A stretch of 64,000 bases of DNA from Pocillopora damicornis (taxonomy: Eukaryota). Below are positions 15,001 to 33,000 of the stretch, one piece after another. The DNA is taken from contig NW_020844115.1 of NCBI RefSeq assembly GCF_003704095.1, forward strand, positions 186,001 through 250,000. Direction: 5' to 3'. Within the stretch, counting starts at the first letter, position 1; the number at the start of each line of letters is the position of its first letter. The position numbers were made by a program.

Positions 15001-18000
15001 TAAAACTTTAGTGTTGATTCAGTTTGTTTGAAATAACGGCGTCCATCATGTATCTTGATGTGGTGTGTTGATTTCGCTAAACGATATTCATGATCAAATT
15101 TTTGCATTTTGTTTTATAATAAATTTCGGATGTAACTAGTGTTCTCATTGTTGAAAGAGCGTTTTTTATCAGAGTACAAAACACGGAGCTAAAGCTGTCA
15201 CGCCATCTTCCAATTTGTACAATTTCCGACCATTGCCCGGATTCCTCTCTGTTTTTTTTTTCGTTAATTGAACCACAAGTCTGACATGACTTGTAAAAGC
15301 AATATGAGAGCAAGCTCTTGGCCTCAACGGATACAGAAAAACCTGTAGGTAACAGAACAAATTTCATGGAGATAGGAAGTGAAATTTTGGAACAAGCTGA
15401 CCAGCAATTAGCAAGAGAAGATAGGTTTTAAACATGCGAAATTACAACGTGAGCAGAGACAATAATCACCAAAATGGATAAAATGGACTGTCCGAGTTTT
15501 GAAGGAAGTAATGCAAGATAATTAAACGGATTCTTTATAAAAAAAAAACAAATGAAGAAGTCTTGACTGTGCTCTGTTCTGTTGTAAGACTTTTAAAGCA
15601 AAAAGGAGGCAGCTAGAGCACTCAAAAAGTTGGGAGAAAAACTGTATTGCGTCTCGTGTTTTCCCCTACACTTCTTTCGTGCTCTAGCTGCTTCCTGTGT
15701 ACTTTACAACAAAACAGAGCACATATAGAAAAAAAAATTACTTCATGCTAAGTTTGCTTGTACCACATTATTCACTCGTTGCAAAGAAGAAAACACACTC
15801 GCTCGTTCCTCCCTCGTTCGTTTTTTCTTCACAAATCGTGGGTATAAATCATCGACGCGAACTAACCATTAAGTAATTTATAAATGGCTAAGCCCCACCG
15901 ACGCCAGCAAATTTAGTTTTCATTTCAGAGCCATAATTCGTACCGCGTTTAAGTATTCGGAAAGAACTTTATGCTTTTTTATTTATTTCTTTTTTTTTTT
16001 GTTTTTTTTCTTTCATTTCAATAATTCTTGCTTAAAGAGTCTCTCTCCATTCATTTTATCACAGTTCTCAGCTATGTCAAAGTAATAGGTCTTTTTAGCT
16101 ATGTGGTCACGTGGTTTGAAACGAGTAAGCAAAAGAATGCAAAATGACTGTTAGGTATATAACGCAGGTGACACCTTATGGACGAAATTCCTTCCTCTCT
16201 TTTTAATAAAAAATTCATATTCACAGAAAGATCAGCAGCACTCAAAAGACTGCGGTTATATAGAAATCGGCGATAACCGAAATGGAATCATTAACTAAGA
16301 TCATAAACAACCTCGAGTTGGATAAACAAACTTGTGAGCACATGATCTTTAAAGATCGCAAAAATACACGAAACGGGCACAAAAGGGAAGCAATTGTATC
16401 ACACCAAGAAATTTTTGACGATTTTGTGATTTCAAGTCAGAATGAAGTTATATTTTGTCGAAAACTATACAGTTTTTTTGTTTTGCGCTAATTAGTTCGC
16501 TCTTGATCGGCAGCCGGTCAAGATTCTCAAACGACTGAATAATCGGCAATCGGATATTTTTTTGAAAATTTAACAAATTTATAGAAGCTACACCATCCAA
16601 AGAATTACATGTTAATGAAGAACCGATAAGCAATCTCGAAGTAATTTTATCTCATGTCTTCAATCTCGAGCCCAGGGTCATTTTGGCTCCTTGTCAGCGG
16701 TATTGTCGCCAAATAATGTCCTCTGGGATAATCAAATTTTTATCCCAGAAATCGCAGGATTCCGGTTTTAACTGCGCATGTCTACACTGTTCAGTTTTTG
16801 CTTCCGGTTGACTTCTGTGCGTGCTCAAAATAGAGCACACGGTCCGCTACGCCAGCGGAAGAAGAAAAGAACGTAAATTACCTTTGTGCACGTGAACTAA
16901 CATTAACAGCTGAAAACTGTTTGAAACACTATTTCATTTTGAAATAGCTTTTTACGGACCATAAAAACATGAATAGGTGCCATCCGCTTTCAATCTCCGA
17001 GTTCGTTTTTCTGCAAACTTGAAATCCTCGTCTTCGAAATGTTCAGACCACACTTTGCTACCAAATATTACACTTAGGTCTTTATTTGATCTTATTTCAT
17101 TCTAAAAGTCGATATCTGTTTTAAAATACATTAAAAAACCATAACGACATTCAAAAATCAAGATTAGACGAAATTTTGTTTTTAACCATTTACTAATGCT
17201 ATTTACTGTGTTTCTATTGTTCCGGTCAGACTCCTTCATGGAAACAACCTACAACTTATTCCTTATCGAGCCTTCTTTGCCATGGATGCCTTGAGGATAA
17301 TGTAGGTACACTCTAATACACACACTTTTCGAATGATTTATTGTAAGAGACTGGTGCAATCGACTTTGTGTAATTTTTTTTTATTCCTTCGATTTTATGC
17401 CTTGACGCTTCTTTAGACGAAGCACATAGACAGGATCTGAGAATACAAGCTACATTCAATTGTAAATAGCCGGCCGTTGTGGCTCACTCACCTCTGATAA
17501 TTGCACACAACTTACCACTTTGGCCAATTCCCAATATTTTTCACACTATTTTTATTAATTGGCGCATGAACAACTTAATCAACCGGTTTTTGTTTGAATA
17601 TTTTGAAAATGTTCTATCAGGTAAGAGTGCCGTAATTTGAAGTGCACGATGATATAGCTACTATGACGGGAATGATACGACAAACACGACGATATCAACG
17701 TTGGTGAATACGAATTAACTATGCTAATAGTGAGGATGATTATTATAATGCGGATAACATTGATGATAACTTCGATGACGACGAAGATAATGATGCTGAC
17801 GATGATACTGATAACGACGATGACGACAATGATGACGTCAATAACGATGACATTTTATCTTTCTATCTTTTACTTACAGAACACTAACTGATAACCCAAT
17901 AGAGACAATTGAGTCGGAGGCATTCAAGTTTTATGGACCTAGTATCACAAATTTGTAAGGGATCTTATCTATTTACTCACCGAGTAAAACCTTGACACCT

Positions 18001-30000: not shown

Positions 30001-33000
30001 TACATTAAATAAGGCATTCGTTATGCTGCGTCCTATCCTGGAGAGCGATATAAGTATCGTAACCATAACGTCACTTGCTATTTAACGTTTATCAATTTTT
30101 CGCAAAATTTTATTGATAGTCTACCGCCTATAATGTCTATAAAGTAGAACCTTACGGAATTTTAAATCTACACTCTTTAAACTTTCATAAAGAAATCACA
30201 TAGAAATATTCTTATATGTAATTATCCAGATTTTAGCTTTGAAGGGTTCAGGTTTGCATTGCTATTAGATGGCTTACTCATTAGTTATTACTTTTTACTC
30301 ATTATCAGTGAGCGCACTGATATAAATTGGAGAAACGTGCTACATTTCAAATTGAAGGGGCAAATACATTAAAAATAGATGAAAAGAAATAATAGCAAGG
30401 CTTCTCTTGATTATTTCCTTCGACGGAAAATGTTTGCTTTATCCAAAAAAAAATTAAACAAATAACAATTTTGAATTTTATCTCTGCCTCAGGTCAGTAC
30501 GTGATGTTTTTGTACGAATATTTAAAAGAGTGGCGCAAAAACCCACAATGCTCCTCTTCATGCTGTCTGGCTTTGCTCCTTCCTCTGAACGACTTGCAAG
30601 GAGAAATTCGAGGTATGGTTGGCAAAAACTTGATGAAAACTCAGCTTGACACAGGTATGTTGGCGAAACCGTCCATTGCTGCCACTGCAAAGGACAGTGG
30701 AGCTATGAGCTTTACTCTTTGTGGTGAAGACGTCGAACCCGAAAAGGAAGACAAACGAAAAGATGAAGTTGTCAAAGACAGCAACAGAAAACGTCATCGC
30801 TGGACACAGACAGAAGTTGTAATGCCACCTTTTGCTTCAACCGTGGAATCTGGATCAATGAGAGGGCAGCAGCGAATAAACAGGTGAGTGTAATAAGTAC
30901 TTTCAGTATTTTTATCAAAGATACAGAAAACCTTGTGTGTAGCATTTAAACAACCTTTTGCGAATATAATGAGCCATCGTCCGGTTGAGTGTAGTCCTGA
31001 GAAGGACTCTTGTCGGTAGTGGTGACTGACGTTTCGACAATCTTAGCGGAAGTCATCTTCAGTCAAGTGAATAGTTGTTGTCAATCGAATGTTCTTAGTC
31101 CGGTAAGTATAAAGTATCAATCAGTATAAATCAGTATATATATAAAATCTGGTACCAATCAGTATAAACTGATTGGTCAGTTTTGCCGTGATGTTATTGG
31201 CTGTAAGACTCAAGTGGACTATTAAATTATCAGAACGCTGAAGTTTGTGATGGAAAAATAACCGTACCTTCTATCTCTTTTCTATGTTCCGTTGATAGGT
31301 AAATATGCTCTTTTTCTTCCATACCAAAATCCAGACTTTCCATTCTCAGCACATTATATTACATATTTAATCACTTGGCTGTGACTTTCTCCGTTTTGTG
31401 ATAATTATTGTCGATTTTCTTTGTCTTATAGCCTTAGCTTTTCTTACTGTCATCTCAAAGTCAGGTTTTGTAACCCTTTGGTTATTTTAAATTATTTTTT
31501 AGTTCTGTTTCTTAAAATGGTGGAAAAAGGAGTGAAAATACATGACCAAATCGCATTTGTAAAGGAATAGATTGATTTGACACAATGCCCATTTCGCCAG
31601 AGCTACTTACCTGGCTTGAAGCCAAGAGTCCATGTGCGGGCGAGAAAGCAGAATTTAAAATTTTTCCTGCATTGCAATTACGCAAATGATATCTAGTAGT
31701 GACAAACTCGTCAACGTGTTTCTTTTAATGTTGTCTTTTTGCAAGCAGTATGAAACAGAATGACTGAGTAAAACCTATGCTAAAATTCCAGGAGGATTCA
31801 GCTCCTCCAAAAATTGTACTATCGATACCTTTTTTTTCTAGACTTCAGCCTTTAATGCATGAGATGCATACCTCTGGAGAAAACTGTGATGCATCAGAAA
31901 TACTGAAGACATTCATAAAGAATGAAGCAGAGGGTAATGCACCAGAGAAGCAGAAGGAAGGCTTAAAGATTGTACCTAAGGGCAATATACCACCAAAGCA
32001 AAATGAAGGCATGAAGATTGAAGCAGAGTGGAATGCACAAGCAAAGCAGAAGGAAGGCATGAAGATTTTAGTAGAGTGCGACGCACCAACAAGGCAGAAG
32101 GAACGCGTGGAAATTGTATCAGAGTGCAATGCATCGGCAAAGCAGAAAGCACTCATGAAGAGAGAAGTAGAGAGTACTGTATTGGCAAATCAAGCGGAAG
32201 ACATGAAAATTGTACCAGAGTGCAATGCACCAACAAAGCAGAGGAAAGGCGTGAAGATTATGGAAGAGGGTAATAGAGTGGCAAAGCTGAAGGCATTGAT
32301 AAAAAGTGAAGCAGAAGGTAATGCACCGGCAAATCAAAAAGAAGACATGAAGATTGTAGCAGAGTGCAAGCCACCAGCAAAGCAAAAGGAAGATATGGAG
32401 ATTGGAGCAGTTTGCAATGCACCAGCAAAGCAGGAGGAAGGCATGAAGAATGAGACAGGGGGCAATGCACCAGCAAAGCAGAAGGAAGGCATTAAGATTG
32501 TGGCAGAGGATAATGCATTAGCAAAGCAGAAGGAAGGCATGAAGAATGAAGCAGAGGGCAATACACGGGCAAACCAAAAGGAAAGCATGAAGATTGTAGC
32601 GAAGGGTAATACAGTCGCAAGGCAGAAGGCATTCATGAAAAATGAAACAGAGAGCAATCCACCTGAAAAGCCGAAGACATAACTGAAATTAAAACCCGAG
32701 GCCATAAACTTTAATCAATCAGTGGAATGTTTGCTATCGCATAACGTGCTAAACCATACATTTAAAAACAAGTGTAGCGAAATTATTGTATCCCTCATTC
32801 AGATAGGTTTTAGTTAATGTAGAAGAGATATCTTTTATAGAAGGGGCTTTGTTTATAGACAAAAGAATCCCTTAGACTATGTATTTGTATCAAGCATAAG
32901 TGCCGTGATATATTTCAGTATCTAAATTCCATTTCTTTACTTTTATCGCCTTTAAAATCCTATACTCGATATCGTTAGCTTGTGTACTATTGTGAAGCTA

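What the first reader, a model, noticed from the sequence alone, without database searches (positions are those of the whole stretch)
17230..30883. Unusual receptor architecture: LRR solenoid + CxxC repeats + non-rhodopsin multi-pass membrane domain
Seen: no canonical LRRCT (NPWxCxC) cap, no TIR or kinase domain and no DRY/NPxxY motifs. Instead there are CPxG/CxxC repeats and about 8-9 hydrophobic segments with KILIGFYQV, ADYSIKC and YKxxxWYWELVEMxRK. From recall, these motifs resemble a poorly characterised membrane-protein family that is expanded in protists and non-bilaterian animals (TRP_C-like / 'GPCR-related'). Inference: a signalling or channel module of unknown function is coupled to a variable LRR sensor, unlike TLR, NLR or LGR receptors.
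Basis: partly seen in the sequence, partly recalled or inferred. Interest (0 to 1): 0.7.

Follow-up and report, generated by a model that had tools for sequence, protein, structure and literature searches.

The report
LRR receptor with TRP-like membrane domain
This is an animal gene that appears to join a long leucine-rich-repeat sensor and cysteine-rich stalk to a roughly nine-helix membrane domain of an uncharacterised family whose nearest named neighbours are fungal and protist "TRP-like" putative calcium channels.

Summary
The core observation holds. One 1548-nt exon (25733-27280, +) encodes a Cys-rich segment followed by about 9-10 hydrophobic helices, and it carries all three quoted motifs. 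Its 536-codon frame is far longer than chance allows. Two short exons upstream encode CxxCPxG modules.

Only two divergent LRR exons (17230, 17880) lie inside the finding. The real LRR array is 11 near-identical 72-nt exons plus one dead copy at 2-8552. GT-AG sites and intron phases link 17230 to 27280 without a frame break. They probably also link on to 30493-30883 and 31842-32682, which is past the stated end.

No TIR, kinase, 7TM-GPCR, LRRCT, DRY or NPxxY was found. The membrane domain hits no Pfam model, PF06011 (TRP) included. By language-model features its nearest clusters are sponge and cnidarian LRR/DUF7630 proteins and protist Ephrin_rec_like proteins. A minority of members in some of those clusters carry PF06011.

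Both single-sequence AlphaFold runs failed (pLDDT 38 and 41), so no fold comparison was made.

Best reading: an N-out, C-in receptor of a database-known but unstudied family. It may be a ligand- or force-gated cation channel, but that function is inferred only.

The parts
2..8552 (+). Tandem array of one-repeat LRR exons, each 72 nt with phase 2 at both ends. Starts: 2, 618, 1416 (cut by the N run 1472-1841), 2964, 3339, 3751, 4167, 5313, 6502, 7653, 8481. One dead copy lies at about 1913-1983.
   Evidence: Motif scan and splice context. Twelve DNA copies of the unit were found. The copy at 1893-1995 has lost its acceptor and carries a frame shift. Whole exon-plus-intron units are 70-95% identical. 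Of 10 exons sent one by one to Pfam, 8 came from this array and 7 of those had LRR_8 as best hit (E 9e-4 to 0.13, below the cut-off); 7654 had none.
17230..17301 (+). Divergent LRR exon (LLHGNNLQLIPYRAFFAMDALRI), 72 nt, phase 2 to 2
   Evidence: AG|...|GT context and frame. Fits the LRR pattern by eye. No Pfam hit.
17880..17954 (+). Divergent last LRR exon (TLTDNPIETIESEAFKFYGPSITN), 75 nt, phase 2 to 2
   Evidence: No Pfam hit.
18100..21700 (.). Retroelement debris inside the intron 17955-23383, with broken frames on both strands
   Evidence: ORF list. A CX2CX4HX4C knuckle is visible in the minus-strand frame 20390-20704. Weak gag-asp_proteas match for 19997-20290, E 0.016. The other 4 of the 5 element ORFs sent in that call had no hit.
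23384..23565 (+). Linker exon (phase 2 to phase 1). It runs NPLDSN... without LRRCT cysteines, then the first CPLGTF..C..CPP module.
   Evidence: DNA and frame. TNFR_ELAPOR1_6th E 1.4e-5 and Ephrin_rec_like E 0.037, both below cut-off. No LRRCT hit.
24428..24553 (+). Cys-rich exon (phase 1 to 1): GFYVD..CKKCPNGSY..CKACPI
   Evidence: DNA and frame. Ephrin_rec_like E 0.005 and TNFR_c6 E 0.02, both below cut-off.
25733..27280 (+). Large exon (phase 1 to 1, 515 whole codons) encoding a Cys-rich region and the whole multi-pass membrane domain
   Evidence: Splice sites. Frame length against shuffles. Atlas recognition score 2804.
26002..26127 (+). DUF7630-like 8-Cys module directly before the first membrane helix
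   Evidence: PF24633: E 7.6e-5, 23.2 bits against a cut-off of 27, covering profile positions 3-45 of 45.
26137..27279 (+). Membrane domain. About 9 transmembrane helices are proposed, with N outside and C inside. It holds KILIGFYQV (26272), a 4-Cys outer loop with ADYSIKC (26728), and YKPTFWYWELVEMSRK (WYWELVEM at 26947) in an inner loop.
   Evidence: Hydropathy and motifs. Helices in both AlphaFold runs. Loop charge and Cys counts. No Pfam hit at E<=10. Atlas neighbours.
30493..30883 (+). Candidate next exon (phase 1 to phase 2, 130 codons, charged tail); unverified
   Evidence: Longest phase-1 candidate, 1 of 22 listed, with a pyrimidine-rich acceptor. CAG|GTGAGT donor at 30883|30884. No Pfam or NCBIfam hit.
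31842..32682 (+). Candidate last exon (phase-2 acceptor): 279 codons, K/E-rich 16-residue repeats, stop TAA at 32680-32682, ATTAAA at 32688; unverified
   Evidence: Acceptor ttttttttctag|A and frame. Stop codon. 48-nt period, 14.9 copies, 69% matches, 0% indels. Repeat layout and ATTAAA. No significant Pfam hit.

Best explanation
This is one large gene on the + strand, cut at its 5' end by the window. It encodes a receptor with its N terminus outside the cell. The parts in order are:
- an array of at least 13 LRRs, one per 72-75-nt exon;
- a stalk of TNFR/ephrin-receptor-like CxxCPxG modules ending in a DUF7630-like module;
- a membrane domain of about nine helices;
- a charged cytosolic tail.

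It belongs to a family that exists in public predicted proteomes of sponges, cnidarians and many protists but has not been studied.

Shown here: the exons, their phases, the domain content, and the lack of any known signalling domain.

Inferred: the membrane domain is a distant relative, or at least a functional analogue, of the PF06011 'TRP-like' domain of fungal Flc/Pkd2 proteins. The fission-yeast member of that family lets calcium through when the membrane is stretched. On this reading, ligand binding or pulling on the LRR/Cys-rich ectodomain would be passed through the rigid disulfide stalk to the membrane helices and open a cation path. The conserved-looking inner-loop helix YKxxxWYWELVEMxRK and the repeat tail would serve as gating or docking elements.
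For: Gene structure:
- GT-AG sites keep one frame through 17230-17301, 17880-17954, 23384-23565, 24428-24553 and 25733-27280. Phases run 2-2, 2-2, 2-1, 1-1, 1-1.
- The upstream LRR exons are all phase 2-2.
- No signal-peptide-like ATG exon with a phase-2 GT donor exists in 8563-17229. The strict screen gave 0 candidates. The relaxed screen gave 4 ATG frames, and 0 of those had such a donor.
- The 536-codon frame compares with a shuffle maximum of 198.

Domains:
- Weak but mutually consistent hits to LRR_8, Ephrin_rec_like/TNFR and DUF7630.

Family:
- The top Atlas clusters are an LRR-containing family (Porifera; DUF7630 in 12% of members), a cnidarian cluster (DUF7630 in 36%), and Ephrin_rec_like clusters with PF06011 TRP in 11-15% of members, at scores 0.89-0.95.
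- With the membrane part alone, 11 of 30 hits fall in the PF06011-bearing set. Nine of the ten best hits that have a family share a family or clan with the best of them.

Topology:
- RKRKTK follows helix 1. The 4-Cys loop lies outside. Inner loops carry 6, 5, 6 and 3 Lys+Arg.

Analogy:
- S. pombe Pkd2 has a signal peptide, an extracellular domain, a central TRP-like membrane domain and a cytosolic tail (PMC6727746, passages read).
- Reconstituted Pkd2 passes calcium on stretch (PMC9727806, abstract and passages read).
Against: - hmmscan found no PF06011 match for the membrane domain, even at E<=10.
- PF06011 is carried by only 11-15% of members of the neighbouring clusters. Atlas scores carry no E-value. 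The tool states that none of its calibration was measured for parts of proteins.
- Both structure models are unusable (pLDDT 38.4 and 41.0), so the fold was not compared.
- No solved relative exists by sequence. The best PDB E-value was 0.1, to an unrelated POZ protein.
- No transcript evidence is available.
- An 8.7-kb gap separates the main LRR array from the 17230 exon.
- Helix number (9 or 10) and topology are my own estimate, not a dedicated predictor's.
- Even for the fungal family, channel function is called 'putative' in most of the papers read. The yeast members were first described as flavin carriers (PMC9600462, passages read).
Confidence: 0.45

Rival explanations
1. The architecture is the same, but the membrane domain is not a channel. 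It would act as a transporter or carrier, or as a passive multi-pass anchor or scaffold for an adhesion or recognition receptor that signals through its repeat tail.
For: - The membrane domain matches no channel model.
- There is no recognisable pore-loop signature.
- The yeast PF06011 proteins are named flavin carriers (PMC9600462, passages read).
- A long K/E-rich repeat tail could be a docking platform.
Against: - The only named family that recurs among the neighbours is PF06011. The member of that family tested in vitro passes calcium (PMC9727806).
- No transporter family matched either.
Confidence: 0.3
2. There are two genes. The near-identical LRR exon array (2-8552) would belong to a separate LRR-only gene. 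The membrane-domain gene would carry only the two divergent LRRs and start somewhere in 8563-17229 or from an unseen short first exon.
For: - An 8.7-kb gap with no detected exon.
- The LRR exons at 17230 and 17880 share no DNA similarity with the array.
- The nearest Atlas cluster representatives are only 566-830 residues long. That is shorter than the roughly 1300 codons obtained by adding the exon lengths.
Against: - The exon at 17230 starts at an acceptor in phase 2, the same phase in which every array exon ends.
- No ATG plus hydrophobic first exon with a phase-2 donor was found in the gap.
- The 3 long frames from the gap sent to Pfam gave no hit above a cut-off. One had a weak Ku_N match at E 0.006.
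Confidence: 0.15
3. It is a decaying gene copy that is not expressed as a full protein.
For: - One dead LRR unit at about 1913-1983.
- Retroelement debris in an intron.
- Assembly gaps within the array.
Against: - All the other exons are open and have intact GT-AG sites.
- The 515-codon exon has no stop.
- Across 9 LRR exons, mean pairwise identity is 80%, against 62-65% for the 60-nt intron flanks. The exon changes are concentrated at 5 codons.
Confidence: 0.07

Closest known systems
Fungal Flc / Pkd2 / TrpR 'TRP-like' proteins (Pfam PF06011 TRP, usually with an N-terminal ML-like domain)
   Same: - Order of parts: signal-anchored extracellular domain, central multi-pass domain, cytosolic tail (PMC6727746).
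- PF06011 is the only named family recurring among the Atlas neighbours of the membrane domain.
   Different: - No PF06011 profile match.
- The ectodomain is LRR plus Cys-rich modules, not ML-like.
- The host is an animal, whereas the papers read call the family fungal (PMC9600462).
- The tail is a 16-residue repeat rather than a coiled coil.
Protist Ephrin_rec_like + TRP_C-type membrane proteins (unstudied; automatic names such as 'TRP C-terminal domain-containing protein')
   Same: - A Cys-rich CxxCPxG ectodomain directly before a similar multi-pass domain.
- Atlas scores of 0.93 for the two PF06011-bearing rows and for the Ephrin_rec_like-only row; a third PF06011-bearing row scores 0.89.
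   Different: - This gene adds an LRR array and a DUF7630-like module.
- Kinship is shown by language-model features only. No alignment was possible.
Polycystin-1 (PKD1), from general knowledge
   Same: N-terminal LRRs on a large ectodomain joined to a multi-pass, channel-related membrane domain. It is the one well-known case of an LRR sensor on a TRP-related membrane module.
   Different: No PKD, REJ, GPS, PLAT or polycystin-channel model matched any exon searched here. The helix count and motifs also differ.
LGR-type receptors (LRR-containing class A GPCRs)
   Same: One LRR per short exon with constant intron phase (the LGR gene structure is recalled, not tested here), followed by a Cys-containing hinge and then a multi-pass domain.
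   Different: No 7tm model matched. There is no DRY, NPxxY or CWxP. The domain has about 9-10 helices rather than 7.
Toll-like receptors
   Same: An LRR ectodomain on a membrane protein.
   Different: It has a multi-pass domain rather than a single helix. There is no LRRCT and no TIR.

Membership tests
Pfam PF06011 TRP (fungal Flc/Pkd2-type) | Match to the family profile above the gathering score | tested here: not met
   hmmscan of the whole large exon (E<=1) and of the membrane part alone (E<=10) listed no PF06011 match.
Pfam PF06011 TRP (fungal Flc/Pkd2-type) | Extracellular N-terminal domain, central multi-pass domain, cytosolic C-terminal tail | tested here: inconclusive
   My hydropathy, charge and Cys reading gives 9 helices with N outside and C inside. 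The AlphaFold secondary structure allows 10. No dedicated topology predictor was available.
Pfam PF06011 TRP (fungal Flc/Pkd2-type) | Shared fold with family members | not testable with these tools
   Single-sequence models had pLDDT 38.4 and 41.0. No homologues could be fetched for an alignment.
Pfam PF06011 TRP (fungal Flc/Pkd2-type) | Calcium or cation permeation | not testable with these tools
   This needs expression and electrophysiology or calcium imaging.
DUF7630 (PF24633)-containing sponge/cnidarian membrane proteins | DUF7630 module next to the first membrane helix | tested here: inconclusive
   E 7.6e-5 and 23.2 bits against a cut-off of 27, covering profile positions 3-45 of 45 and ending 3 residues before helix 1. 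The top Atlas clusters carry DUF7630 in 12% and 36% of members.
Ephrin_rec_like / TNFR-type Cys-rich repeats | Profile match | tested here: inconclusive
   E 0.005-0.037 for Ephrin_rec_like, 1.4e-5 for TNFR_ELAPOR1_6th and 0.02 for TNFR_c6, all below cut-offs. Each module is split by a phase-1 intron and the exons were searched singly, which lowers the scores.
Leucine-rich repeat proteins | LxxLxLxxNxLxxLPxxxF units in tandem | tested here: met
   The regex gave 13 hits against a mean of 2.0 and maximum of 7 in 100 shuffles. Of 10 exons searched out of 13, 7 had LRR_8 as best hit, each below the cut-off because only one repeat was sent. The 3 without a hit were 7654, 17231 and 17881.
Class A / LGR GPCR | 7tm_1 profile and DRY / NPxxY motifs | tested here: not met
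   No 7tm model matched. No DRY, NPxxY or CWxP was found.
Toll-like receptor | LRRCT cap, single membrane helix, TIR domain | tested here: not met
   No LRRCT or TIR hit in any exon searched. The protein has many helices.

The most novel reading that the evidence does not exclude
This would be an animal 'ionotropic pattern receptor'. An exon-cassette LRR array, with hypervariable exposed residues, would directly gate a calcium-permeable membrane domain that is a remote relative of the fungal Flc/Pkd2 family. That would show the supposedly fungal family to be pan-eukaryotic, and it would give early-branching animals a recognition-to-ion-flux pathway independent of TLR, NLR and GPCR signalling.
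Probability: 0.15. Interest if true: 0.8.

Novelty: new variant of a known kind. Interest (0 to 1): 0.5.

Why it matters
If the membrane domain proves to be a PF06011-type channel, this gene would link a diversifiable LRR sensor directly to ion flux. That receptor logic is known in animals only from polycystin-1. It would also extend a family treated as fungal to animals and protists.

It would give invertebrate immunity and chemosensation research a new receptor class to test.

The claim should stay modest. Similar predicted proteins already sit in public databases, so what is new is the reading, not the existence, of the family. No paper in the searchable library mentions DUF7630, PF24633 or PF23091. 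None combines leucine-rich repeat, TRP-like and Porifera. The 8 papers that cite PF06011 concern fungi, crustaceans, a bivalve and one mouse/human gene (listing only for 6 of them).

Tried and rejected
- **Long-stretch Pfam search.** A three-frame translation of 17230-25683 was rejected by the tool because of stop codons. I then searched frame by frame and exon by exon.
- **AlphaFold2.** The large exon (pLDDT 38.4) and the membrane part alone (pLDDT 41.0) both gave unusable models. Fold search was therefore not run, because low-confidence models give meaningless matches.
- **PDB sequence search.** It returned only chance-level POZ-protein hits, E>=0.1.
- **Bacterial and archaeal genomes.** 31 pattern matches were found and 0 were confirmed as relatives.
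- **NCBIfam.** One chance-level hit, E 0.038.
- **Paralogue search in the window by tblastn.** None found; the best other hit had E 0.81.
- **Paper search with 'TRP_C'.** It was swamped by TRPC channel papers and was useless. The search on Ephrin_rec_like, PF07699, multi-pass and TRP found nothing relevant. The one Ephrin_rec_like paper says only that the domain is old in eukaryotes.
- **Candidate extra LRR-like exon at 22502 (75 nt).** The scan flagged it. I rejected it on reading because it does not fit the NxL register.

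
Full report
**Setting.** The window is AT-rich (about 37% G+C) and looks like animal DNA with spliced genes. Other frames in it match C2, Bmt2 and BAAT/acyl-CoA thioesterase families. Six N runs are present. They were left untouched. One of them (1472-1841) cuts an LRR exon.

**The large exon: is the observation real?** Yes for its core.
- The stop-to-stop frame 25684-27294 (+) has 536 codons. In 100 shuffles of the window the longest frame averaged 138 codons, with a maximum of 198.
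- Within this frame an acceptor (ttttaacag|GA, exon start 25733) and a donor (GTCG|gtaag, exon end 27280) bound a 1548-nt exon in phase 1 at both ends.
- Its 515 whole codons contain KILIGFYQV (26272), ADYSIKC (26728) and YKPTFWYWELVEMSRK (WYWELVEM at 26947).
- The first 131 residues carry 12 cysteines.
- After that, hydropathy gives 6 separate hydrophobic stretches (11 overlapping window peaks). Both AlphaFold runs draw 10 long helices.
- There is no DRY, NPxxY or CWxP.

**The cysteine-rich exons.**
- Exon 23384-23565 opens with NPLDSN and has none of the cysteines of an LRRCT cap. It ends with CPLGTFSEGNGKCMECPP.
- Exon 24428-24553 encodes GFYVD...CKKCPNGSY...CKACPI.
- Each CxxCPxG module is split by a phase-1 intron just after the Gly codon's first base.
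- Searched singly, these exons match TNFR_ELAPOR1_6th (E 1.4e-5), Ephrin_rec_like (E 0.005 and 0.037) and TNFR_c6 (E 0.02). The module before the first helix matches DUF7630 (E 7.6e-5, 23.2 bits against a cut-off of 27). All are below Pfam's cut-offs.
- I read them as real but weak matches. Single-exon searching cuts every module in two.

**The LRRs.** Inside the finding there are only two LRR exons, 17230-17301 (72 nt) and 17880-17954 (75 nt). They fit LxLxxNxLxxIPxxAF by eye but hit no Pfam LRR model.

- Twelve DNA copies of an exon-plus-intron unit lie between 1 and 8562.
- Eleven contain a 72-nt phase-2 exon encoding DLSSNALSSLPEGVFAKLTRLQK or a close variant. One of these runs into the N gap.
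- One copy (1893-1995) has lost its acceptor and carries a frame shift.
- Of 10 exons out of 13 sent singly to Pfam, 7 had LRR_8 as best hit (E 9e-4 to 0.13). Three had none: 7654, 17231 and 17881.
- Whole units, introns included, are 70-95% identical. This is therefore an old tandem array and not an assembly stutter.
- Across 9 complete exons, mean pairwise identity is 80%, against 62% and 65% for the 60-nt flanks. Amino-acid change is concentrated at codons 19, 20, 22, 23 and 1 of the unit. By my alignment to the LRR consensus these are positions x23, x24, x2, x3 and x5, at and just before the beta-strand of the concave face.
- That pattern supports the phrase 'variable LRR sensor'.

**One gene or two?**
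- From 17230 to 27280 every junction is GT-AG and keeps the frame. Phases run 2-2, 2-2, 2-1, 1-1, 1-1.
- The exon at 17230 begins at a phase-2 acceptor, so it needs an upstream exon ending in phase 2. Every array exon ends that way.
- A screen of 8563-17229 for an ATG exon with a hydrophobic start and a phase-2 donor gave 0 candidates with GTRAG donors. Four ATG frames passed the relaxed screen, and none had a phase-2 GT donor.
- The longer frames in the gap gave no Pfam hit above a cut-off.
- I therefore favour one gene, with an 8.7-kb intron. This is inference, and only cDNA can settle it.
- The intron 17955-23383 holds broken retroelement frames on both strands. These include a gag-type zinc knuckle by eye and a weak aspartyl-protease match at E 0.016.

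**The 3' end.**
- After the phase-1 donor at 27280, the longest phase-compatible candidate starts at 30493 behind a pyrimidine-rich acceptor. It was 1 of 22 candidates listed.
The in-frame TGA at 30885 is made by that donor.
- A phase-2 acceptor (ttttttttctag|A) at 31842 opens a 279-codon frame made of about 15 copies of a 48-nt, 16-residue K/E-rich repeat with no indels. The frame ends at TAA 32680-32682, with ATTAAA at 32688.
- The gene therefore probably runs to 32682. Both of these exons are unverified.

**What is the membrane domain?**
- It has no Pfam match at E<=10, PF06011 and all 7TM models included.
- It has no NCBIfam match of note.
- It has no solved relative by sequence, no relative in bacterial or archaeal genomes and no paralogue in the window.
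- By language-model features the large exon sits next to three kinds of cluster. The first is a sponge cluster named as LRR-containing (DUF7630 in 12% of members, score 0.95). The second is a cnidarian cluster (DUF7630 in 36%, score 0.94). The third is protist or algal clusters with Ephrin_rec_like, some of which have PF06011 TRP in 11-15% of members (scores 0.93, 0.93 and 0.89).
- With the membrane part alone, 11 of 30 hits are in the PF06011-bearing set. Fourteen more are in unnamed haptophyte and ciliate sets.
- These scores have no E-value and were not calibrated for parts of proteins. They are not a membership test.

**Structure.** Single-sequence AlphaFold failed twice, so I ran no fold search. 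Every search used one exon or one frame.

**Mechanism.**
- Charge and cysteine distribution fit nine helices with the N terminus outside and the C terminus inside. RKRKTK follows helix 1. The 4-Cys ADYSIKC loop is outside. The YKxxxWYWELVEMxRK helix is in an inner loop.
- This order of parts mirrors fission-yeast Pkd2: extracellular domain, central TRP-like membrane domain, cytosolic tail (PMC6727746, passages read).
- Reconstituted Pkd2 passes calcium when the membrane is stretched (PMC9727806, abstract and passages read).
- Fungal relatives affect calcium balance (PMC8618638 and PMC9600462, passages read).
- My best reading is that binding or pulling on the LRR and disulfide-rich stalk gates a cation path. 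I put 0.45 on the whole statement. Most of that rests on the architecture. The channel step taken alone is less likely than not.

**Novelty.**
- Similar predicted proteins are already in public sets.
- I found no paper on DUF7630, PF24633 or PF23091.
- I found no paper combining leucine-rich repeat, TRP-like and Porifera.
- The PF06011 papers listed concern fungi, crustaceans, a bivalve and one mammalian gene.
- I rate it a new variant of a known kind: an LRR-bearing animal form next to the TRP-like Flc/Pkd2 kind. It is of moderate interest until fold or function is tested.

Noticed in passing
window 2-8552: The LRR exons sit in tandem exon-plus-intron units 375-1548 bp apart that are 70-95% identical. 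Amino-acid change is concentrated at 5 of the 24 codons, while the intron flanks diverge more than the exons. This pattern suggests diversifying selection or cassette-like evolution of the binding face.
   Followed up: partly
window 1893-1995: A dead LRR unit. The acceptor is changed from the usual ATAG|G and a one-base loss shifts the frame. It lies right after the N run 1472-1841.
   Followed up: partly
window 18100-21700: Broken retroelement frames lie on both strands inside an intron. They include a CX2CX4HX4C knuckle (minus strand, 20390-20704) and a weak aspartyl-protease match (19997-20290, E 0.016). They were described only.
   Followed up: partly
window 31842-32682: An open frame of about 15 in-register copies of a 16-residue K/E-rich repeat (KQKEGMKIVAEGNAPA-like), with no indels. 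It is splice-compatible with the receptor gene as a cytosolic tail. It matches no known family.
   Followed up: partly
window 12000-14000: A G+C-rich block (45% against about 37% elsewhere) with strong negative GC and AT skew, inside the 8.7-kb gap between LRR exons. The one long frame from it that was sent (12782-13183) gave no Pfam hit. It may be a repeat element.
   Followed up: no
window 51913-53615 and 57607-59795, minus strand: Two neighbouring BAAT/acyl-CoA thioesterase-like genes (BAAT_C E 3e-58 and 7e-60; Bile_Hydr_Trans E 9e-38). They form a tandem pair.
   Followed up: partly
window 45589-46647, minus strand: A single open frame matching the Bmt2 rRNA methyltransferase family (E 2.6e-57).
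   Followed up: partly
window 42247-42993, plus strand: A frame with a C2 domain (E 2.4e-21). It is probably one exon of a larger gene.
   Followed up: no
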